A stretch of DNA of 64,000 nucleotides from Escherichia phage ZCEC14: the sequence record OP168898.1. One strand, written 5' to 3'. Numbering within the stretch: the stretch's first letter is position 1; each line of letters starts with the position of its first letter. Positions 564 to 61,275 of the stretch are shown in pieces. The notes beneath the pieces were generated by a model, which searched no databases, was not told the origin of the DNA, and was given only the letters and a program-made list of their open reading frames with translations. A program made the position numbers and the translations under genes.

Positions 564-929
564 ATGAACTACATCAACTTTGAACGTAAATATGTTTCTA
601 ATGGTATTGCAGGTTCTATTGATACCATCTGCCTTTGGAAACATCAAAATGGATCAGTATGCGAAATTGAACAGTATATGACTCCTAACTACGTTTATAT
701 GCGATTTGAAAATGGCATCACGGTTTCAATCACGAAAGAAGGTTCTTCCTTTAAAATCGCATTAGATGATGATTTCCGTCAACGTGATTTAGGTACTCAT
801 CCTTGTTGGAATGGCGTTAATCGCAAGCTTCTGGTTAAAACTTGGATTCGTCATATTCTGAGTAACAGAGCTAAACCTGAGCATCTTGAAGCAATCTTTG
901 ATGTAGTTCTTAACGAATTTGATATTTAA
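564..929 (+). CDS. Hypothetical protein (121 aa)
   Basis: ORF with RBS ggagaataaaaATG. Confidence 0.6.
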   Translation: MNYINFERKYVSNGIAGSIDTICLWKHQNGSVCEIEQYMTPNYVYMRFENGITVSITKEGSSFKIALDDDFRQRDLGTHPCWNGVNRKLLVKTWIRHILSNRAKPEHLEAIFDVVLNEFDI

Positions 930-940
930 AAAATAAATGA

Positions 941-17976: not shown

Positions 17977-19488
17977 TTATAAATTAACTGTTTTCATTAC
18001 GTAATTAAATTTTTCATCTGCGTAGCGCTGAATACGATCAATGCCGTGTTTTAAAAGATAGTTCAAATGAACATATTTCTTTTTAGTATTAGCAGATTTT
18101 GGCTTAACACCACAATCATCTATGAGGTCCCAGACTGTTGCTATTGTCTTAGAACCATGCTTACGTAATACACGACCGATTGTTTGTAATACAATGATTT
18201 TTGATTTAACACCGTGCGCTAAAACAACGTGATGCAGATTTTTAACTGAAATACCAGTAGAAAATACACCATAACTAGCTACTATAATTATTCCTTTACC
18301 ATTTTCAGCTAAGGTTTTCATTATATTGCGGGTTTCGGTATCAACTTCCCCTGATACGTAATAAACTTTATCGTATTCATTTTTAATTAAATCGAAAATA
18401 GCTTTACCGTGCGATACATGTTTAAACATGACAAAAGCGTTTTCATCTTTTTGCGCAAGCTTAATAGCTAATTTCGCGATCCATTTATTTCTTTTACTAA
18501 GCCCAGTAATAATTTTTATTTCTTCTTGATAAGTTTTTCCCTTTAATTTAGTAGTGAACTCATCAGGATAGCGAAGAAAAATACTATTAATTTTTAACTC
18601 AGTTACTTGTCCATCTTCCATTAATTTAGAAGTCGTTACTGGTTTAAATATTTCACCAAACATTCCAACGTACTGCATGATATTGGCTTTGCCATCACGT
18701 AATGAACCTGATAGACCAAATTTAAACATACAGTTATTTAAACCTGATATGATAGATGAAATACTTTTTCCTGTAGCAAGATGACATTCATCATTCATCA
18801 TCATTCCAAACTGTGAGAACCATTCTTTTGGTTGTTTAACTACAGTTTGCCATGTACCAACAACGACTGGTGCATCATTTTTATATTTATCATCTTTTGA
18901 TGCTCCTCCACCGATTTTCTTTATCATTGCATGACTGAATAAACGATAGTCAACGAAGTCATCAGCCATCTGAGTTGTCAGAGCGGTTGTTGGAACAATG
19001 ATAAGAATTTTACCTTCATAATTTTCCAAATAATACCGAGCAAGCAAAGCTTGAATTAAAGATTTACCTGCGGATGTTGGAAGATTAAGAATTCTACGAC
19101 GATTAACTAATCCTTCGAACACTGCATCTTTTTGATACCAGTGTGGTTCAATTCTTTTATTTCCTGAATAGATTTCTAATTTAGAAAGCCATTCATCAAA
19201 ATCTTTTCTTGATAATTCTTCTTTTTCGTTAATCTGTGGGTCAATCCAGGCTTTATAGCCAAAGTTATCACAGAACTTTTTAATTTGCCCGACTAAGCCG
19301 AATGGAAGAAGGCGATTATAATCTAAAAGACGGATTCGTCCATCCCAGTGGCCATATTTGTATTTCGGATTAAAACGATACCCATCAGCTTCAAAGCTAA
19401 AGAAATCACGGAGTTCATGAAATGTACTTTCTTCACAATCAATTCTCACGTGACTAAAATCATAAAAATGTACTTTAATGTCAGTCAT
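17977..19488 (-). CDS. uvsW: UvsW-like SF2 DNA/RNA helicase (503 aa)
   Basis: Walker A PTSAGKS and DECH box (MNDECH) in translation; length as T4 UvsW. Confidence 0.85.
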   Translation of the reverse strand: MTDIKVHFYDFSHVRIDCEESTFHELRDFFSFEADGYRFNPKYKYGHWDGRIRLLDYNRLLPFGLVGQIKKFCDNFGYKAWIDPQINEKEELSRKDFDEWLSKLEIYSGNKRIEPHWYQKDAVFEGLVNRRRILNLPTSAGKSLIQALLARYYLENYEGKILIIVPTTALTTQMADDFVDYRLFSHAMIKKIGGGASKDDKYKNDAPVVVGTWQTVVKQPKEWFSQFGMMMNDECHLATGKSISSIISGLNNCMFKFGLSGSLRDGKANIMQYVGMFGEIFKPVTTSKLMEDGQVTELKINSIFLRYPDEFTTKLKGKTYQEEIKIITGLSKRNKWIAKLAIKLAQKDENAFVMFKHVSHGKAIFDLIKNEYDKVYYVSGEVDTETRNIMKTLAENGKGIIIVASYGVFSTGISVKNLHHVVLAHGVKSKIIVLQTIGRVLRKHGSKTIATVWDLIDDCGVKPKSANTKKKYVHLNYLLKHGIDRIQRYADEKFNYVMKTVNL

Positions 19489-19517
19489 GTCTAAATACCA
19501 TGTAATAAATATATCTA

Positions 19518-19525
19518 TATTTATA
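19518..19525 (-). promoter_or_regulatory. Late promoter TATAAATA (minus) upstream of uvsW
   Basis: tatttata on + strand about 30 nt upstream of uvsW start. Confidence 0.4.
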
Positions 19526-19538
19526 CTGAGGAAATATT

Positions 19539-20219
19539 ATGATAGATAAAGATTATATTGCAGAGCTGAAGGCTCTTGATGATAATAAAGAAGCTAAAGC
19601 TAAATTAGCTGAATACGCTGAACAGTTTGGTATAAAGGTCAAAAAGAATAAATCTTTTGATAATATCGTTGTTGATATTGAAGAAGCCCTCCAGAAGCTC
19701 GCTAGTGAACCTATGCCGGAGACTGATGGGTTATCTATTAAAGACTTAATTGATGCTGCTGATGCTGCAGAGGGATTAAAATATGACGATGAAGAAGTCA
19801 ATCCAGAAGCAGCACTTCTGATTGATTCTCCGGTTAAATCTGACATTAAAATTGAAGTAGTAGAAACGGATAAAATTCCTGAAAATACTGATATTTTGAT
19901 TGAAGATACTCCCTTTGTTGAAGAAAAATTTGAACAGGCTGTATCTGAGATTATTGAATCTGAAAAGCCGTCTGTATTTACTCTTCCGGAAAACTTTAGT
20001 CCGAATCTTCAGCTGATTGGAAAAAATCCAGGATTCTGCACTGTTCCTTGGTGGATTTATCAATGGATCGCTGAAACTCCGGATTGGAAATCTCACCCAA
20101 CTAGTTTTGAACATGCGTCAGCACACCAAACTTTATTTAGCTTAATTTATTACATTAACCGTGACGGATCAGTTTTAATTCGTGAAACACGCAACTCTTC
20201 TTTCGTAACATTAAAATAA
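19539..20219 (+). CDS. inh: Inh-like inhibitor of prohead protease (226 aa)
   Basis: Length and position as in T4. Confidence 0.75.
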   Translation: MIDKDYIAELKALDDNKEAKAKLAEYAEQFGIKVKKNKSFDNIVVDIEEALQKLASEPMPETDGLSIKDLIDAADAAEGLKYDDEEVNPEAALLIDSPVKSDIKIEVVETDKIPENTDILIEDTPFVEEKFEQAVSEIIESEKPSVFTLPENFSPNLQLIGKNPGFCTVPWWIYQWIAETPDWKSHPTSFEHASAHQTLFSLIYYINRDGSVLIRETRNSSFVTLK

Positions 20220-20228
20220 GGATAACTT

Positions 20229-21646
20229 ATGGCTTTTACAGTTGATATAACTCCTAAAACACCTACTGGAGTTATAGATCAGACTCAGCAGTTTACTGCT
20301 ACACCCAGTGGTGAAACTGGAGGCGGAACTATTACCTATGCTTGGAGCGTAGATAATGCTCCCCAAGAAGGATCAGCAGCAACTTTTGATTATGTATTAA
20401 AAGGACCTGCTGGTCAAAAAACTATTAAGGTAGTTGCAACAAATACTATTCCTGATTCTGAAGCTGAAACAGCTGAAATTAGTACAACTATCACAGTTCA
20501 AAATAAGACACAAACGACTACCTTAGCCGTAACTCCTAATAGTCCTCCGGAAGGAGTAATCGGAACAGCTATTGAATTTACTGCCGCTTTAGCTTCGCAG
20601 CCACCAGGTGCATCTGCTACGTATCAATGGTACGTTGACGGTTCTCCTGTGGGCGAAGCAACTTCTGCTACATTCAATTACACTCCTGCCGAAAGCGGGG
20701 TAAAAAGAATTAAGTGTGTGGCTCAAGTAACCGCAACAGATTATGATGCAAAAGAAGTTACTTCTAATGAAGTGTCACTGACTGTTAATAAAAAGACACA
20801 GACAACTACTTTGGCAGTAACTCCTGATAGTCCTTCAGCTGGAGTAATTGGAACCCAGTTCAATTTACTGCTGCCTTAGCTTCTCAACCAGTTGGAGCGT
20901 CTGCTACGTATCAGTGGTATGTAGATGATTCACAAGTTGGTGGAGAAACTAACTCTACATTTAACTATACTCCAACTACAAGTGGAGTAAAAAGAATTAA
21001 ATGCGTAGCCCAAGTAACTGCTGAAAATTACAATGAAAAGGAAGTTACTTCGAATGAAGTATCATTAACGGTTAATAAGAAGTCAATGAATCCACAGGTT
21101 ACATTGACTCCTCCTTCTATTAACGTGCAGCAAGATGCTTCGGCTACATTTACAGCTAATGTTACTGGTGCACCAGAAGAAGCACAAATTACTTATTCAT
21201 GGAAGAAAGATTCTTCTCCTGTAGAAGGGTCAACTAACGTATATACTGTTGATACCTCATCTATTGGAAGTCAAACTATTGAAGTTACTGCAACTGTTAC
21301 TGCGGCTGATTATGATAGCAAAACTATTATAGCAGAAGGTCAAGTTCAGGTAACTGATAAAGTTGCTCCGGAACCAGAAGGTGAATTACCTTATGTTCAT
21401 CCTCTTCCACACCGTAGCTCAGCTTACATCTGGTGTGGTTGGTGGGTTATGGATGAAATCCAAAAAATGACTGAAGAAGGTAAAGATTGGAAAACTGAAG
21501 ATCCAGATAGTAAATACTACCTGCATCGTTACACTCTTCAGAAGATGATGCAAGATTATCCAGAAGTTGATGTTCAAGAATCACGTAATGGATACATCAT
21601 TCATAAAACTGCTTTAGAAACTGGTATCATCTATACCTATCCATAA
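20229..21646 (+). CDS. hoc: Hoc-like outer capsid decoration protein with an extra Ig-like repeat; reading frame interrupted at a C-run (20854-20856), giving track ORFs 20229..20879 and 21086..21646
   Basis: N-terminus close to T4 Hoc as recalled; 3 Ig-like repeats plus C-terminal capsid-binding domain; +1 frame continues the repeat across the break. Confidence 0.75.
20503..21083 (+). repeat. Tandem direct repeat of about 290 bp (two diverged copies), each encoding one Ig-like domain of Hoc
   Basis: Copies begin aataagacacaaacgactacc / aaaaagacacagacaactact and end gttaataaaaag / gttaataagaag. Confidence 0.75.
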
Positions 21647-30618: not shown

Positions 30619-31275
30619 TCATTCTAGTAAATCCCAAAGATCTACACTATTTCTTTTTGATTTTTCTCGGTTAGATTCCCAAGTGATTATTTCTAAATTA
30701 TTAATACCGCCAATTATTTCAGCAGGAATTAAATTATCAAAACCGTATTTGATAGATACCTTATGATCAAGTTGGTAAGCACCTTTTGTACCGCACACTC
30801 CTATTTTATCAGCATTTGGCCATTTTGACCAAATTTTCTTATGCTTACGAGTTTCTTTATATACCAATGAAATATATTCACGCATTTCAGATTTATTTGG
30901 GTTCCATCTTGGATGATTTACGCCATGCATACATTCTACTGTTTTTCCTTTATTCGCGGAACCATATGAATTATTGCGCATTTTATCTTTATGACGGCAA
31001 TCACGACAAATATCAGTGTTTCTTCCAATGCGTTGGTTATATTCAATTCCACATTTATCGCAACGGCATTTTACATACGCGGTACTACCTTTAATGTCTT
31101 CAACTTTAACATCAATTTCATAATACCTAAATCCATGTTTAACCGCTCCAAGAGGTGTTAATTTATAACCCTTTGATTGATAATGTTTAAAATTTGATGG
31201 TACAATTTTCACTTTAACAAACTTAGAAATAATCACTTGTTTCCTCGAGAATAGGGGCCGAAGCCCCATAATCAA
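30619..31275 (-). mobile_element. Free-standing HNH-family homing-endonuclease-like gene (218 aa) inserted between genes 18 and 19
   Basis: Cys cluster CRCDKCG...CRDCRH, HGVNHPRWNPN and LDHKVSIKYG...NLEIITWESNREK (HNH-like His/Asn); no gene at this position in T4 as I recall. Confidence 0.65.
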
Positions 31276-56552: not shown

Positions 56553-57237
<685 letters not shown>

Positions 57238-57248
57238 TTTCACAAAGT

Positions 57249-57282
57249 TGTTTACATACTGATGAGGTAGTGATACTATTAT
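57249..57282 (+). promoter_or_regulatory. Early promoter cassette (GTTTAC; stem gatgag/ctcatc around gtgatactatta)
   Basis: Shared motif family, upstream of 57310. Confidence 0.55.
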
Positions 57283-57309
57283 CTCATCAAAATTAATTAG
57301 GAAAATAAA

Positions 57310-57618
57310 ATGAAAACATTTAAAGAATTTATCAATGAAGCGGCTGCGCCAAAGACATTCGTTATTAATACTCAGACGAGTCTTGACGATGAGTATGCAG
57401 AGGCAATTCTGAAGTCACTTGCTAAGAACGGCGTTGAAGTAATCGCTTCGGACTTTAAGAAAGGGGCTTCCGAGATGTTTATTTCTATAACTAAAGGATC
57501 TAAAGCTAAGATCAAATCATCATTCGGAGTTGCTCGTACCGATCAAATCGACAATCATGACTTTAAACAAACTGGCGTTAAACGGCAGAACACAATTGCA
57601 TCACGCGGAATAAAATAG
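57310..57618 (+). CDS. Internal-protein-like small basic protein (102 aa) with capsid-targeting-like N-terminus MKTFKEFINEA
   Basis: N-terminus resembles T4 IP capsid-targeting sequence (MKTYQEFIAEA as recalled) with an I-x-E gp21-cleavage-like site. Confidence 0.65.
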   Translation: MKTFKEFINEAAAPKTFVINTQTSLDDEYAEAILKSLAKNGVEVIASDFKKGASEMFISITKGSKAKIKSSFGVARTDQIDNHDFKQTGVKRQNTIASRGIK

Positions 57619-57628
57619 TTTATAAACC

Positions 57629-57660
57629 GTTTACTTTTAGATGGGGTAGTGATACTATTA
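57629..57660 (+). promoter_or_regulatory. Early promoter cassette (GTTTAC; stem gggta/taccc around gtgatactat)
   Basis: Downstream 45 nt nearly identical to cassette at 57913. Confidence 0.55.
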
Positions 57661-57686
57661 CCCTATCAACTACTGAGGAGAATAAA

Positions 57687-57909
57687 ATGAAAACATCTAA
57701 AGAATTTATTGTAGAAGCTAAAAGACGCGAAGACGAACTGCCTTTTGTTTCAAAAACCTTTGATGGAACATTGTCTGATTTTAAAAAATTCCTAATGATA
57801 AACTTGCTAAATTGGTTGGTTCTATCAGTGAAAAAGGTGGCAAGGTCACATTTTCTGCTCAAGGTGTTGCCAATCTTAAAAAACTTTTGAAAGCCGCTGG
57901 TGTTGAATA
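57687..57909 (+). CDS. Internal-protein-like ORF (MKTSKEFIVEA...) interrupted by a frameshift at an A6 run (57783-57788); continues in another frame to TAA 57907-57909
   Basis: With A7 instead of A6 the frame reads ...DFKKIPNDKLAKLVGSISEKGGKVTFSAQGVANLKKLLKAAGVE; the track ORF tail LMINLLNWLVLSV looks out-of-frame. Confidence 0.5.
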
Positions 57910-57912
57910 AAT

Positions 57913-57944
57913 CGTTTACATAGGGTTTTAGTTGTGATACTATT
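57913..57944 (+). promoter_or_regulatory. Early promoter cassette (GTTTAC; gtgatactattaccc)
   Basis: Near-identical to cassette at 57629. Confidence 0.55.
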
Positions 57945-57971
57945 ACCCTATCAACTACTGAGGAGAATAAA

Positions 57972-58157
57972 ATGAAACGTTGTGAATTAATTCGAAATGT
58001 TGCTATTGCAATTTCTGCTTCCGCTTTTAGTTTTTCAATGTTTGTTGGATTTATATGTGGATTATTAACTACAGCAGAAAATGTGTTTTCACTTGTAGTA
58101 GCATTTTTAATTGGTTTAATTGCTATCGTTATGGATAAAATTTCTAAAGGTGAATAG
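57972..58157 (+). CDS. Small membrane protein (61 aa, two predicted TM helices)
   Basis: Hydrophobic segments AIAISASAFSFSMFVGFICGLL and FSLVVAFLIGLIAIVM. Confidence 0.55.
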   Translation: MKRCELIRNVAIAISASAFSFSMFVGFICGLLTTAENVFSLVVAFLIGLIAIVMDKISKGE

Positions 58158-58158
58158 A

Positions 58159-58539
58159 ATGTATAAAGTGTACGCGGATTATCAGGCTAATCCATCTGAA
58201 AAGCCAGGTTGTCAAATTGGATGGGCTCATGATACTTTACTTGAAGCAGTAGATGCTGCTCAAAAATTGGGATATAAATATGTAGAGATTGTTCAACCGT
58301 CAGGAAAAGTTATTACTCTTGAAGAGTTCAATAACATTAAACCGAACTTTTTACTTTTTGCAGGTGATAATTATTATCCTCGTGGTGGATATGCTGATTT
58401 AATCGCGAAAGCCGCCACTGAAGATGAACTCCGTGACATTATCAAAGAAAATGAAAACAAACCAGATTATGGTTCCAATCGCTTTGATTGGTGGCAAATT
58501 GTAAATGCCAATACGCATACTATTGTTGATGAAGGTTGA
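58159..58539 (+). CDS. Hypothetical protein (126 aa from ATG 58159)
   Basis: ORF with RBS aaaggtgaatagaATG; track start 58120 is less likely. Confidence 0.55.
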   Translation: MYKVYADYQANPSEKPGCQIGWAHDTLLEAVDAAQKLGYKYVEIVQPSGKVITLEEFNNIKPNFLLFAGDNYYPRGGYADLIAKAATEDELRDIIKENENKPDYGSNRFDWWQIVNANTHTIVDEG

Positions 58540-58926: not shown

Positions 58927-58999
58927 TGGGAATTAGCCAAGTTGGTAAGGCACTGGATTTTGATTCCAGGATGCAAAGGTTCGAGTCCTTTATTCCCAG
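58927..58999 (+). tRNA. tRNA-Gln (anticodon UUG)
   Basis: Cloverleaf: acceptor tgggaat/attccca, anticodon loop ttttgat, T-arm ggttcgagtcc. Confidence 0.85.
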
Positions 59000-59000
59000 C

Positions 59001-59087
59001 GCGAGAATGGTCAAATTGGTAAAGGCACAGCACTTAAAATGCTGCGGAATGATTTCCTTGTGGGTTCGAGTCCCACTTCTCGCACCA
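59001..59087 (+). tRNA. tRNA-Leu (anticodon UAA), class II long variable arm, CCA encoded
   Basis: Acceptor gcgagaa/ttctcgc, anticodon stem cagca/tgctg with loop cttaaaa. Confidence 0.85.
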
Positions 59088-59092
59088 AATTT

Positions 59093-59166
<74 letters not shown>

Positions 59167-59176
59167 ATTTAATTTA

Positions 59177-59250
59177 CTCCGTGTAGCTCAGTTTGGTAGA
59201 GCGCCTGATTTGGGATCAGGAGGTCCAAGGTTCAAATCCTTGTATGGAGA
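59177..59250 (+). tRNA. tRNA-Pro (anticodon UGG)
   Basis: Anticodon stem cctga/tcagg, loop tttggga; T-arm ggttcaaatcc. Confidence 0.8.
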
Positions 59251-59252
59251 CT

Positions 59253-59342
59253 GGAGGCGTGGCAGAGTGGTTTAATGCACCGGTCTTGAAAACCGGCAGT
59301 CGCTCCGGCGACTCATAGGTTCAAATCCTATCGCCTCCGCCA
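59253..59342 (+). tRNA. tRNA-Ser (anticodon UGA), long variable arm
   Basis: Acceptor ggaggcg/cgcctcc, anticodon stem ccggt/accgg, loop cttgaaa. Confidence 0.85.
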
Positions 59343-59347
59343 GTTTT

Positions 59348-59423
59348 GCTGATTTAGCTCAGTAGGTAGAGCAACTCACTTGTAATGAGAAGGTCGGCGG
59401 TTCGATTCCGTCAATCAGCACCA
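59348..59423 (+). tRNA. tRNA-Thr (anticodon UGU)
   Basis: Acceptor gctgatt/aatcagc, anticodon loop cttgtaa. Confidence 0.85.
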
Positions 59424-59424
59424 A

Positions 59425-59499
59425 GGCCCTGTAGCTGGAAGGTTCAAGCAAGCGACTCATAATCGCCAGATGGTGGTTCAATTCCACCCAGGGCCACCA
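59425..59499 (+). tRNA. tRNA with CAU anticodon (Ile2-type if lysidine-modified, otherwise Met)
   Basis: Acceptor ggccctg/cagggcc, anticodon loop ctcataa. Confidence 0.75.
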
Positions 59500-59511
59500 A
59501 ATTATGAATTA

Positions 59512-59598
59512 GGGGAGTTATCCCGTAGAGGTAGCGGTGTGGACTGTAAATCCATTGTCATTGCGACTCGGGTGGTTCGACTCCATCACTCCCCACCA
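59512..59598 (+). tRNA. tRNA-Tyr (anticodon GUA), long variable arm
   Basis: Acceptor ggggagt/actcccc, anticodon stem tgga/tcca, loop ctgtaaa. Confidence 0.75.
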
Positions 59599-59602
59599 AT
59601 TT

Positions 59603-59677
59603 GGATGTGTAGCTCAATGGCAGAGCGATCGCCTGTTAAGCGATTGGTTATAGGTTCGAATCCTATCACGTCCGCCA
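59603..59677 (+). tRNA. tRNA-Asn (anticodon GUU)
   Basis: Acceptor ggatgtg/cacgtcc (G-U pair), anticodon loop ctgttaa, T-arm ggttcgaatcc. Confidence 0.75.
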
Positions 59678-59681
59678 AATC

Positions 59682-59757
59682 CGAGGCATAGCTCAGAAGG
59701 AAGAGCAAGGACCTTCTAAGTCCTGGGTCGTAGGTTCGATCCCTACTGCCTCGACCA
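59682..59757 (+). tRNA. tRNA-Arg (anticodon UCU)
   Basis: Acceptor cgaggca/tgcctcg, anticodon stem ggacc/gtcc, loop ttctaag. Confidence 0.8.
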
Positions 59758-59775
59758 ATTATAAGTGAGGAAAAT

Positions 59776-60126
59776 ATGAAAGGTAATGTTTATTTAGTAG
59801 TTCATGATTTAACATTCTATTTTAATCATAATGATACTGTTATTTCTGAACGTGTAATTAATTTACTTTATCAGCATGCAGATTATGTTTATGTTGAAAA
59901 CGAATTTGGACATTGGCAATTTATTAAAAATCGTTCATTTGGTTTAGATGGTTACGAATATTTTGAACGTAAAGACCTTTTAGATAAAATTCCGTTATCT
60001 ACACAATATCAAAATCATAAGTCTTTATATAAATGTCGGCTAATTCGAAATGCTGAATCTGCGTATGAAGCAATTGATTTATGGCGTAAACGCCGTGAAC
60101 AGATTGATGCTTTAAAAGAATATTAA
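59776..60126 (+). CDS. Hypothetical protein (116 aa)
   Basis: ORF with RBS gaggaaaatATG directly after tRNA cluster. Confidence 0.55.
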   Translation: MKGNVYLVVHDLTFYFNHNDTVISERVINLLYQHADYVYVENEFGHWQFIKNRSFGLDGYEYFERKDLLDKIPLSTQYQNHKSLYKCRLIRNAESAYEAIDLWRKRREQIDALKEY

Positions 60127-60465
60127 GAAACCGGGTCGCTACCGGTAAGTCGTCGGACTGATGTTCCCTGAGTAAGGACTAGCATTAACAAATCTTTGCG
60201 ATTGGTTAATGCCCCCTTACATCACAGCAGAAACGGCGCACCGAATTATCGATTCGAGGAAATATCTTTGCCGTAAGCCGAGTAGCGTTTTTGACGGAAC
60301 GTTCGGATATGGTCGAGATATGGCCTTTTAAAAATATTGAGTAGCGTCAACTGCTTAATAACCGGGTTCGAATCCCGGCGTTTCGTACAAACACTTGCCT
60401 TAGCAGGTGGAACCCCGACAAGGTTGCCGCAAGGCTTAGCCCCGACCGAAAGGTTGGGGCTTTTT
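60127..60465 (+). ncRNA. Structured non-coding region, candidate stable small RNA(s) analogous to T4 rnaC/rnaD, with tRNA-like T-arm and terminal hairpin+T-run
   Basis: GC-rich, stop-rich; accgggttcgaatcccggc T-arm-like element (60361-60380); terminator agccccgacc-gaaa-ggttggggc-ttttt at 60436-60465. Confidence 0.4.
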
Positions 60466-60555
60466 AGTTTGAATCATATAGAGAATGCTGTTACGGATAA
60501 TAACAAAGTAATAAATAATTAATAACCAACCGATAAATTATTTCAAGGATTTTAA

Positions 60556-61119
60556 ATGAAAACCTATGCCGAATTTTTAACCGAAGCAGCAAAATTACCA
60601 TCTGAAGCAGATCTTACTAAAGTATTCTTCCAATTGGACCCCAAAGACCGTGGTGATTTTCTTAAGTGGAAAGCTAAAGCTATTGAAATGTATAACATTG
60701 ATAATAGTTCTTTTACGATGAGTCAAGAAAATAAATTCAATAAAGCATTTTTCAAAATTTCTAAGAAATTGGCATCTGGCACTCAGGTTCCTAAATCTGC
60801 CTTAGCTACTCCTGAACGTGCACCTGTTAAAATTTCTAAGAATATGTTTGACACTAAAAAATATGTCAATGCTTTGAATAAAGCTCTTGATGCATTGGAT
60901 GATGCAAAGAAGGCAGCTCGTGATCTTCAAGACGTGTACACCGATTTTGATCGTAAAACTAAAGGTTCTATTTCAAATAGCGAACGCAATAGTGTAAGTG
61001 TTTATTCCGATAGCCTTGATGTTCTTGGCGATGCGTATACTGAAATTAAAAATCGTATTAACACTGCATCTAAGCTAAAAGCTGCTGCCGAAGCTATAAT
61101 AACTAAACTAGGTAAATAA
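60556..61119 (+). CDS. Internal-protein-like protein (187 aa) with capsid-targeting-like N-terminus MKTYAEFLTEA
   Basis: N-terminus close to T4 IP capsid-targeting sequence; size similar to IPIII (about 194 aa as recalled). Confidence 0.65.
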   Translation: MKTYAEFLTEAAKLPSEADLTKVFFQLDPKDRGDFLKWKAKAIEMYNIDNSSFTMSQENKFNKAFFKISKKLASGTQVPKSALATPERAPVKISKNMFDTKKYVNALNKALDALDDAKKAARDLQDVYTDFDRKTKGSISNSERNSVSVYSDSLDVLGDAYTEIKNRINTASKLKAAAEAIITKLGK

Positions 61120-61275
61120 TTTTAAATCCCTATCTAAATGATAGGGCTTTTTGGTATCTAGGCCTTTCTGGACCTCTCTAGGCATCATTTAGTTTCTACC
61201 CTTTATAATATATTATCCTATCTTTTAATTGCCCCTCCCTGCTCTAGAATTCCCTAAAATTTTTTTCACAAAACG

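What the first reader, a model, noticed from the sequence alone, without database searches (positions are those of the whole stretch)
57687..57909. Internal-protein-like ORF interrupted at an A6 homopolymer
The ORF starting MKTSKEFIVEA shifts frame at aaaaaa (57783-57788). With seven A residues the reading frame would continue as ...DFKKIPNDKLAKLVGSISEKGGKVTFSAQGVANLKKLLKAAGVE to TAA at 57907, which looks like genuine hydrophilic protein sequence, whereas the in-frame continuation (LMINLLNWLVLSV...) looks like out-of-frame translation. This is either a homopolymer sequencing error, a recently inactivated gene, or slippage-dependent expression.
Basis: seen in the sequence. Interest (0 to 1): 0.45.

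Follow-up and report, generated by a model that had tools for sequence, protein, structure and literature searches.

The report
Frameshifted ip8 internal-protein gene, T4-like phage
This is a known small accessory gene (ip8) of a T4-like phage, coding for a protein packed in the head and injected with the DNA; here it is broken by one missing A in a run of seven, which is either a recent knockout or a sequencing slip and not a special decoding signal.

Summary
The ORF at 57687 starts with the T-even capsid-targeting leader (MKTSKEFIVE|A) and changes frame at A6 (57783-57788). The only error is the stop of the restored frame, which is TAA 57908-57910, not 57907-57909.

The gene is ip8 of the polymorphic ipI locus, first described in phage RB15. 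It lies between 57B/acb1 plus ip7 and tRNA.4. Each of the 43 phage records carrying ip8 spans a length that fits A7, and all five aligned show it. The nearest, VEc74, differs from the window by that one base only.

Nothing supports programmed slippage: there is no in-frame slippery heptamer, no downstream RNA structure, and A6 is too short for transcriptional slippage. As written, the product keeps the leader and one strand of a predicted β-α-β-β-α fold.

Real mutation and sequencing error cannot be separated without reads. I lean slightly to a real mutation. The window has three unique one-base homopolymer changes: ip8, hoc at 20854-20856, and an intergenic run at 928-933. None hits an essential gene (P≈0.04-0.08 if placed at random), and 70 other named genes are intact.

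This is ordinary and of low interest.

The parts
57622..57686 (+). Conserved ~70-nt leader repeat upstream of ip8. It contains a sigma-70/T4-early-like promoter (TTTACT 57630-57635, 17-nt spacer, TACTAT 57653-57658), a 12-bp hairpin at 57640-57667 that encloses the -10 element, and the SD GAGGAG at 57675-57680.
   Evidence: Direct-repeat families D1-D3 have copies before ip7 (57245-), ip8 (57622-) and tRNA.4 (57907-). The promoter scan finds TTTACA-17-TACTAT in the two sister copies. The ip8 copy scores 8/12, read directly from the sequence. Hairpin: -16.1 kcal/mol, z -2.78.
57687..57716 (+). Capsid-targeting sequence (CTS), MKTSKEFIVE. The prohead protease (gp21) is expected to cleave after E10, before A11.
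   Evidence: The N-terminus is conserved in all Ip8 homologues (M1 K2 T3 F7 I8 E10 A11). The role of the CTS is taken from the literature (PMC3012670; PMC12373910). Cleavage and packaging are inferred and were not tested.
57687..57788 (+). 5' part of ip8 in the original frame: codons 1-34, ending in K33 K34 (AAA AAA).
57783..57788 (+). A6 homopolymer, the site of the one-base deletion. It is A7 (TTT AAA AAA ATT = F K K I) in every aligned relative.
   Evidence: Alignments with VEc74, UFV-AREG1, G4498, RB15 ip8, VR5 and C6. Of the 43 records, 36 span 225 nt, 6 span 222 nt and 1 spans 226 nt, against the 224-nt query.
57791..57910 (+). 3' part of ip8, out of frame as written: codons P36-E74 plus TAA 57908-57910.
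   Evidence: 100% protein identity to VEc74 Ip8 residues. ORF 57812-57910 lies in the same frame. The repaired protein matches PHROG 8765 over residues 1-72.
57687..57890 (+). The ORF as written: 67 aa, made of the CTS, 24 native residues and 33 out-of-frame hydrophobic residues, with TGA at 57888-57890.
   Evidence: This exact product is not on record in public assemblies.
57310..57618 (+). ip7-type internal head protein gene (102 aa, CTS MKTFKEFINEA), the upstream neighbour in the same cassette array.
   Evidence: PHROG 2667 'internal head protein', E 5e-41. It corresponds to RB15 ip7. The identical protein occurs in at least 22 public contigs.
56779..57237 (+). Gene 57B (Acb1 family), the left boundary of the ip locus.
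   Evidence: 100% identity to RB14 57B. Pfam Acb1, E 2.7e-60.
57972..58157 (+). tRNA.4 (61-aa predicted membrane protein), the right boundary of the ip locus. It has its own copy of the leader repeat, so no polar effect of the ip8 frameshift is expected.
   Evidence: 100% identity to RB14 tRNA.4. PHROG 1692. Repeat copy at 57907-57977.

Best explanation
The feature is ip8, one of the interchangeable internal-protein cassettes in the ipI locus of T-even phages.

When intact, the gene encodes a 74-aa protein. Its 10-residue N-terminal capsid-targeting sequence loads it onto the scaffolding core of the prohead. The leader is then cut off by the prohead protease after E10. The small basic α/β protein that remains is injected with the DNA, presumably to disarm a host defence as T4 Ip1-3 do against GmrSD enzymes.

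In this genome the A7 run encoding F-K-K-I has lost one A. Translation therefore leaves the native frame after K34 and ends 33 unrelated residues later, so the protein fold is lost. The lesion is not programmed. I think it most likely a genuine, recent replication-slippage (Streisinger-type) mutation at the longest homopolymer of a dispensable accessory gene. Under this reading the phage is an ip8 null. Its aberrant leader-bearing peptide may still be packaged.

Shown here: gene identity, locus, leader, the A6/A7 difference, loss of the predicted fold, and the absence of recoding signals.

Inferred: packaging, cleavage, injection, the anti-defence role, and that the deletion is biological rather than a sequencing artefact.
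For: Identity and locus:
- 95.6% nucleotide identity to RB15 ip8, and 99.6% to VEc74, where the single gap is the only difference.
- The synteny 57B-ip7-ip8-tRNA.4 is as in RB15, UFV-AREG1, VEc74 and G4498.
- PHROG 'internal virion protein', E 8e-23.

Effect on the protein:
- The AF2 model (pLDDT 77) has residues 1-13 disordered and β20-26, α37-42, β45-50, β53-59, α61-70. The shift after K34 leaves only β1.

Not programmed:
- Relatives have an in-frame A7.
- There is no heptamer.
- The downstream fold has z -0.91.
- AAA makes up 81% of Lys codons in the window, so A7 follows from codon usage.

Real rather than artefact:
- 70 named T4-type genes in the window are single-frame and full length.
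- Only three window-unique one-base homopolymer changes exist: ip8, hoc 20854-20856 and intergenic 928-933.
- None lies in an essential CDS, although essential CDS holds 57-66% of homopolymer runs. P≈0.04-0.08 if placement were random. That is the pattern purifying selection leaves.
- Runs of 7 or more are rare here (4 in 64 kb), so an A7 is a natural slippage hotspot.
Against: - No reads are available, and the sequencing platform is unknown.
- Both coding deletions are unique to this sequence among hundreds of relatives.
- The A6 allele and its 67-aa product are absent from IMG/VR, JGI metagenomes, GTDB genomes and the assembly index.
- Unique undercalled homopolymers are the classic signature of 454, Ion Torrent or Nanopore consensus error.
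- ip8 shows no other change relative to VEc74, so there is no sign of decay after inactivation.
- The selection argument is weak (three events, rough essentiality classes) and would also arise if submitters had hand-corrected frameshifts in well-known genes.
Confidence: 0.5

Rival explanations
1. Sequencing or assembly artefact. The phage really carries A7 and an intact ip8, and the consensus undercalled the homopolymer. The same would apply to C4 in hoc.
For: - The change is a one-base deletion in a homopolymer. It is unique among 43 ip8 records and absent from all other collections searched.
- A second unique homopolymer deletion lies in hoc, and a unique +A lies at 928-933.
- Apart from the gap, ip8 is identical to VEc74.
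- Other deposited genomes show suspicious states at this locus. Phage C6 has an extra A in another A-run, and its ip8 is annotated as 46 aa. An older UFV-AREG1 protein of 101 aa diverges after residue 49, and that record is now at version 4.
Against: - The rest of the window is clean: 70 genes are full length, there are no ambiguous bases, and all 40 A/T runs of 6 or more in essential genes are in frame.
- All three unique indels avoid essential CDS (P≈0.04-0.08 under random error).
- C4 to C3 is a short run, unusual for homopolymer miscalling.
Confidence: 0.42
2. Slippage-dependent expression. Full-length Ip8 would be made from the A6 allele by -1 ribosomal frameshifting, or by insertion of an A during transcription, as a programmed or usefully leaky event.
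For: - P-site tRNA-Lys on the second AAA can re-pair perfectly one base back, and tRNA-Lys(UUU) is intrinsically shifty (PMC4066793).
- The review literature describes 'savior indels' rescued by low-level frameshifting, such as the HSV TK G-run (PMC5009743).
Against: - The arrangement is not conserved: relatives encode the protein in one frame.
- The in-frame context is U_AAA_AAA, so only an A_AA.A tetramer is present. Tetramers without a stimulator gave 0.147% against 0.112% background, and A_AA.A was the weakest responder even with a pseudoknot.
- The downstream 92 nt fold no better than shuffles (z -0.91).
- No SD-like element lies upstream.
- Bacterial transcriptional slippage is described for runs of about 9 A/T.
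- Any rescue would therefore be of the order of 0.1%.
Confidence: 0.03
3. Mutational ON/OFF switch (contingency-locus-like). The A-runs in ip8 would make the gene toggle at high frequency, so phage populations carry both ip8+ and ip8- members. The deposited sequence would simply show the OFF state.
For: - Two independent frameshifted ip8 alleles at two different A-runs exist among about 44 records: this window (A7 to A6) and Dhakavirus C6 (A6 to A7 at GCT AAAAAAA CAC).
- The A7 run is conserved across Tequatrovirus and Dhakavirus alleles.
Against: - The runs are explained by Lys-rich sequence and 81% AAA usage.
- Both OFF alleles may be sequencing errors.
- No cost of carrying Ip8 is known that would favour an OFF state.
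- A7 is short compared with bacterial contingency tracts.
Confidence: 0.05

Closest known systems
[quoted passage not shown]
   Same: The gene is the same: 95.6% nucleotide identity. It holds the same position as the last ip cassette before tRNA.4, has the same leader repeat upstream and the same CTS-type N-terminus.
   Different: RB15 and the other aligned records have A7 and a 74-aa ORF; the window has A6. The window locus holds only ip7+ip8, whereas RB15 has ip5-ip9-ip7-ip8. I could not read the 1994 paper, so its content is cited only through later papers.
T4 internal proteins IPI*, IPII, IPIII (injected inhibitors of GmrSD-type type IV restriction enzymes)
   Same: They share an N-terminal capsid-targeting leader that is cleaved by the prohead protease. 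All are small, dispensable proteins encoded in hypervariable loci, and the expected mode of action is packaging followed by injection (PMC12373910; PMC3012670).
   Different: Outside the leader there is no detectable sequence or fold similarity. There is no significant Pfam hit, IPI_T4 included, and no PDB hit by sequence or Foldseek. The target of Ip8 is unknown.
ip8 of Escherichia phage C6 (MW679410, Dhakavirus)
   Same: It is another deposited ip8 broken by a one-base change in an A-run, and it is annotated as a 46-aa remnant.
   Different: The run is different (codons 12-13), the change has the opposite sign (+1), and the phage belongs to a different genus.
Streisinger-type frameshift hotspots at A-runs in T4 (rIIB and lysozyme genetics; from my own knowledge, not checked here)
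   Same: These are single-base gain or loss in a run of six or more A during replication by T4 DNA polymerase.
   Different: Those were demonstrated genetically. Here the event is inferred from one consensus sequence.
Promoter-early stem-loop (PeSL) elements of T4-like phages (Arbiol 2010; Comeau 2014, PMC4122927)
   Same: Repeated intergenic modules combine a sigma-70-like promoter (TTTACW-N17-TAYWAT in the PST/T4 pair), a stem-loop and an SD, and they flank swappable accessory ORFs. The paper itself links them to the IP locus.
   Different: In the window the stem-loop encloses the -10 hexamer instead of lying upstream of the promoter. I did not test membership formally.

Membership tests
T-even internal (injected) proteins, Ip family | N-terminal ~10-residue capsid-targeting sequence ending in (I/L)-x-E followed by A (the gp21 cleavage site) | tested here: met
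   The window has MKTSKEFIVE|A. M1 K2 T3 F7 I8 E10 A11 are conserved in the homologues. ip7 next door has MKTFKEFINE|A.
T-even internal (injected) proteins, Ip family | Encoded in the polymorphic ip locus between 57B and tRNA.4, each cassette behind a conserved leader repeat | tested here: met
   Gene map, annotated relatives and repeat families D1-D3.
T-even internal (injected) proteins, Ip family | Orthology to a named Ip (Ip8 of RB15) | tested here: met
   95.6% nucleotide identity over the whole gene. PHROG 8765 'internal virion protein', E 8e-23.
T-even internal (injected) proteins, Ip family | Uninterrupted reading frame giving the mature protein | tested here: not met
   A6 instead of A7 shifts the frame after K34.
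T-even internal (injected) proteins, Ip family | Physically packaged in the head, processed by gp21, injected with the DNA | not testable with these tools
   This needs virion proteomics or injection assays. It is inferred from the CTS only.
GmrSD (type IV restriction) inhibitors Ip1/Ip2/Ip3 | Sequence or fold similarity to IPI* or another characterised inhibitor | tested here: not met
   No Pfam hit above threshold. Best PDB sequence hit E 0.11. Best Foldseek hit E 0.25.
GmrSD (type IV restriction) inhibitors Ip1/Ip2/Ip3 | Blocks a specific restriction enzyme in vivo | not testable with these tools
   This requires plating assays.
Programmed -1 ribosomal frameshift sites | In-frame slippery heptamer X_XXZ_ZZN | tested here: not met
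   The frame-0 context is U_AAA_AAA_U, so only the tetramer A_AA.A is present (motif rules from PMC4066793).
Programmed -1 ribosomal frameshift sites | Stimulatory element (downstream hairpin or pseudoknot, or upstream SD-like sequence) | tested here: not met
   The 92 nt downstream fold at -18.6 kcal/mol against shuffles at -16.2±2.6, z -0.91. No SD-like sequence lies upstream.
Programmed -1 ribosomal frameshift sites | The two-frame arrangement is conserved in relatives | tested here: not met
   All aligned relatives have A7 at this site, which encodes Ip8 in one frame. Record spans for the 43 hits agree, apart from C6, which is broken at a different A-run.
Transcriptional slippage sites (bacterial RNA polymerase) | A/T run of about 9 or more | tested here: not met
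   The run is 6 nt. The threshold comes from PMC5009743.

The most novel reading that the evidence does not exclude
The A-runs of ip8 act as reversible mutational switches. T4-like phage populations would then keep ip8-ON and ip8-OFF subpopulations of an injected counter-defence protein. The window (A7 to A6) and phage C6 (A6 to A7 at another run) would be two captured OFF states, possibly with trace rescue by tRNA-Lys slippage.
Probability: 0.05. Interest if true: 0.5.

Novelty: already known. Interest (0 to 1): 0.12.

Why it matters
It matters little for biology at large. Three practical points follow.

1. Annotation: the locus should be labelled ip8 (internal head protein) and marked as frameshifted or a pseudogene, not as two hypothetical ORFs.
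2. Quality control: this site, the hoc frameshift at 20854-20856 and the A-run at 928-933 are the three positions to check in the reads.
3. Phage biology: if the frameshifts are real, this phage is a natural ip8- hoc- double mutant. That is useful because no target is known for Ip8, and Ip1-3 were recently shown to be specific inhibitors of GmrSD-type restriction enzymes (PMC12373910). An isogenic A6/A7 pair would be a ready-made tool to look for the host defence that Ip8 counters.

Tried and rejected
- Other occurrences of the A6 allele: exact-pattern scans of IMG/VR (0 for A6; 1 for A7, which is phage VR5), JGI metagenome contigs (0) and GTDB genomes (0). These gave no independent A6 and did not reveal the source genome.
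- Exact-product look-ups: the 67-aa ORF and the 216-aa Hoc fragment are not on record. The window's genome therefore appears absent from the collections; the best phage records are about 96% identical over 24 kb.
- The 1994 Repoila et al. paper (PMC395341) is not held.
- Programmed frameshift was rejected. Transcriptional slippage was rejected.
- Re-initiation at TTG 57812 (a 32-aa ORF) was considered as a way to express the C-terminal half. I rejected it because no SD precedes it, and the fragment would lack both the CTS and β1.
- A second, compensating indel was excluded, because the gene is otherwise identical to VEc74.
- Function of Ip8 by homology: Pfam, PDB sequence search and Foldseek all gave nothing significant. 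There were only sub-threshold KH-like resemblances, which I do not rely on.
- A four-reference screen first flagged 15736 as window-unique. It turned out to be a common polymorphism.

Full report
**What the window is**

The window is a 64-kb stretch of a T4-like phage (Tequatrovirus). It runs from gene 30.8 through DNA ligase, alt, the baseplate, head, tail and neck genes, genes 53-5-4-2-3-1-57A-57B, the ip locus, tRNA.4-tRNA.2 and ten tRNA genes to the e.x genes. No phage record matches it closely over long distances; the best are about 96% identical over 24 kb.

**The observation**

- The sequence reads ATG(57687) AAA ACA TCT AAA GAA TTT ATT GTA GAA GCT ... GAT TTT AAA AAA TTC, with exactly six A at 57783-57788.
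- As written, the ORF ends at TGA 57888-57890 after 67 codons.
- One extra A would give ...DFKKIPNDKLAKLVGSISEKGGKVTFSAQGVANLKKLLKAAGVE, stopping at TAA 57908-57910. Everything else in the description is accurate.

**What the gene is**

- The region aligns with the ipI-locus records of many T-even phages, including the original RB15 entry Z35082, where the homologous CDS is named ip8.
- Gene order in the window is 57B (56779-57237; Pfam Acb1), ip7 (57310-57618), ip8 (57687-57910), tRNA.4 (57972-58157). RB15, UFV-AREG1, VEc74 and G4498 have the same right-hand end, ip7-ip8-tRNA.4, with one to three further ip cassettes on the left.
- The repaired protein matches PHROG 8765 'internal virion protein' over residues 1-72 (E 8e-23). 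The ORF as written matches only through its N-terminal part, nominally residues 1-51 (E 2e-7).
- The first eleven residues, MKTSKEFIVEA, are the capsid-targeting sequence type that defines T-even internal proteins. M1 K2 T3 F7 I8 E10 A11 are conserved in the nine full-length homologues found among 5.8 billion proteins.
- The literature describes this leader as sufficient to load even foreign proteins into the T4 head (PMC3012670). It describes Ip proteins as dispensable and injected with the DNA. Ip1, Ip2 and Ip3 of T4 each inhibit a specific GmrSD-type restriction enzyme (PMC12373910).
- Ip8 itself has no known target. I found no significant Pfam, PDB-sequence or Foldseek match.

**The lesion**

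- In alignments with VEc74, UFV-AREG1, G4498, RB15, VR5 and C6, every relative has seven A at this position (TTT AAA AAA ATT = F K K I). The window alone has six.
- VEc74 differs from the window in the whole gene by that one base only (99.6%).
- Across the 43 phage records that carry ip8, the matched span is 225 nt in 36, 222 nt in six (an in-frame codon loss, giving 73-aa proteins) and 226 nt in one, against the 224-nt query.
- The 226-nt case is Dhakavirus C6. It has an extra A in a different A-run (GCT AAAAAAA CAC) and is annotated as a 46-aa remnant.
- The window allele is therefore a derived one-base deletion. It is not an alternative conserved gene structure.

**Consequence for the protein**

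An AlphaFold2 model of the closest full-length homologue (92% identical; mean pLDDT 77) has a disordered leader (residues 1-13). The leader is followed by a compact β(20-26)-α(37-42)-β(45-50)-β(53-59)-α(61-70) domain. The frame change after K34 keeps the leader and the first strand and replaces the rest with 33 mostly hydrophobic residues.

The functional domain cannot form. Because the leader is intact, the aberrant peptide could still be targeted to proheads; this is an inference.

Downstream expression should not suffer, because tRNA.4 has its own copy of the promoter/SD leader repeat.

**Is it programmed?**

- The in-frame context U_AAA_AAA_U is not an X_XXZ_ZZN heptamer. Only the tetramer A_AA.A is present. 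In the systematic E. coli study, tetramers without a stimulator were barely above background (0.147% against 0.112%), and A_AA.A was the weakest of the responsive tetramers even with a pseudoknot (PMC4066793).
- The 92 nt downstream fold no better than shuffled sequence (z -0.91).
- No SD-like element lies upstream.
- Bacterial transcriptional slippage is described for runs of about nine A or T (PMC5009743).
- AAA accounts for 81% of Lys codons in the window's genes. K-K followed by ATT therefore gives A7 by default, not by design.
- I conclude that slippage-dependent expression is not supported. At most, a trace of about 0.1% full-length protein would be made.

**Real mutation or sequencing error?**

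This cannot be settled without reads, but the rest of the window can be examined.

- Mapping 73 named RB14 genes onto the window places 70 in a single frame at full length. The exceptions are nudE (cut by the window end), 5.1 (0.99 coverage, single frame) and hoc, the only gene split across two frames.
- hoc has C3 at 20854-20856 where VEc74, RB14, IME340 and KK4 have C4. The top 30 database hits also each span one base more than the query.
- Against four references, the only other one-base indels seen with all of them are 928-933 and 15736.
  - 928-933 is A6 against A5, intergenic between 30.7 and 30.6, and unique in the database.
  - 15736 is a common polymorphism.
- The window therefore carries three unique homopolymer-length changes: one intergenic and two in classically dispensable genes.
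- Essential CDS makes up 60% of the bases and 57-66% of the homopolymer runs. Three randomly placed errors would all miss it with P≈0.04-0.08. That pattern is what selection leaves on real mutations.
- The 40 A/T runs of six or more in essential genes are all in frame.
- An A7 is among the longest runs in this region; there are only four runs of 7 or more in 64 kb. It is therefore a plausible slippage hotspot.

Several points argue the other way.

- The sample is three events, and the essentiality classes come from my own knowledge of T4 genetics.
- Hand-curation by submitters would produce the same bias.
- Unique homopolymer deletions with no other divergence are exactly what consensus errors look like.
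- The locus has questionable states in other deposits: C6, and an older 101-aa UFV-AREG1 protein in a record now at version 4.
- I put a real mutation at about 0.5, an artefact at about 0.4, and exotic readings at under 0.1 together.

**Attempts to find independent copies of the A6 allele**

All attempts failed. Exact-pattern scans of IMG/VR, JGI metagenomes and GTDB genomes found none. Exact-product look-ups for the 67-aa ORF and the truncated Hoc found none. Contigs that encode the identical Ip7 either lack ip8 altogether or carry an intact 74-aa ip8. This illustrates the cassette-like polymorphism of the locus.

**Comparison with known systems**

- The gene is a member of the T-even Ip family by leader, locus and orthology. 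It fails only the 'intact ORF' criterion.
- It is not demonstrably related to IPI*, IPII or IPIII beyond the leader.
- The repeated upstream module (TTTACW-N17-TACTAT, hairpin, SD, ATGAAA) resembles the promoter-early stem-loop (PeSL) elements proposed to mediate cassette shuffling in T4-like phages. The authors themselves link those elements to the IP locus (PMC4122927).

**Verdict**

This is a correctly observed, ordinary one-base frameshift in a known accessory gene. It has no recoding signal, and the only open question is biological versus technical origin. Novelty: already known. Interest: low.

Noticed in passing
window 20229-21646 (+), frameshift at 20854-20856: The hoc gene (head outer capsid decoration protein) is also frameshifted. 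It has C3 where VEc74, RB14, IME340 and KK4 have C4, and the top 30 phage hits each span one base more than the query. The N-terminal ORF 20229-20879 (216 aa) is followed by the rest of Hoc in another frame, including Ig-like domains and the C-terminal part. As written, the phage is hoc-null.
   Followed up: partly
window 928-933: There is a window-unique extra A (A6 against A5, or A4 in RB14) in the intergenic spacer between 30.7 and 30.6, just before a GC-rich hairpin (GAGGGGCTTCGGCCCCTT). It is the third unique homopolymer-length change in the window.
   Followed up: partly
window 57245-57309, 57622-57686, 57907-57971: Three copies of a ~65-70-nt leader module precede ip7, ip8 and tRNA.4. 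Each has GTTTAC-N17-TACTAT, an SD and ATGAAA, and each contains a 12-13-bp hairpin that encloses the -10 hexamer (z -4.25, -2.78, -2.10). The stems differ between the ip7 and ip8 copies by apparently compensatory changes (GAUGAGGUA/UAUCUCAUC against GAUGGGGUA/UACCCUAUC). The module looks PeSL-like. Its role in transcription, mRNA processing or cassette recombination was not examined.
   Followed up: partly
window 57238-57971 compared with L001-L004 and L015-L024: The ip locus here holds only ip7+ip8. Relatives show ipI-ip9-ip7-ip8, ip5-ip9-ip7-ip8, ip9-ip7-ip8, ip9-ip7 or ip7 alone. The identical 102-aa Ip7 occurs in at least 22 contigs in different cassette contexts. I did not see this exact combination elsewhere.
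   Followed up: partly
L008 301-526 (Escherichia phage C6, MW679410): The ip8 of this Dhakavirus has an extra A in a different A-run (GCT AAAAAAA CAC, codons 12-13) and is annotated as a 46-aa protein from an internal start. It is a second frameshifted ip8 in public data, real or artefactual.
   Followed up: partly
protein P0010 (UniRef, UFV-AREG1): An older 101-aa 'putative internal head protein' of UFV-AREG1 matches Ip8 only to residue ~49 and then diverges. The GenBank record KX009778 is now at version 4 with a normal 74-aa ip8, which suggests an earlier assembly or sequence error at this locus.
   Followed up: no
window 19482-19539: No homing-endonuclease gene lies between uvsW and inh in the window. 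VEc74 and RB14 carry a 618-nt segE-type gene there; only its first 17 residues find a match in the window.
   Followed up: no
window 30619-31275 (-): A 218-aa ORF lies between genes 19 and 18 and has no Pfam hit. The DNA here (30842-31207) does not align with VEc74, which has a different 606-nt hypothetical gene at the same place. RB14 has nothing there. It is probably a mobile or accessory insertion.
   Followed up: no
window 58927-59757: This is an array of ten tRNA genes (Gln, Leu, Gly, Pro, Ser, Thr, Met-CAT, Tyr, Asn, Arg). The region 59757-61128 aligns only in part with VEc74.
   Followed up: no
window 58144-58539: The tRNA.3 homologue is only 57% identical in protein to RB14 tRNA.3, whereas the flanking tRNA.4 (100%) and tRNA.2 (97%) are nearly identical. 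This is a local mosaic replacement.
   Followed up: no
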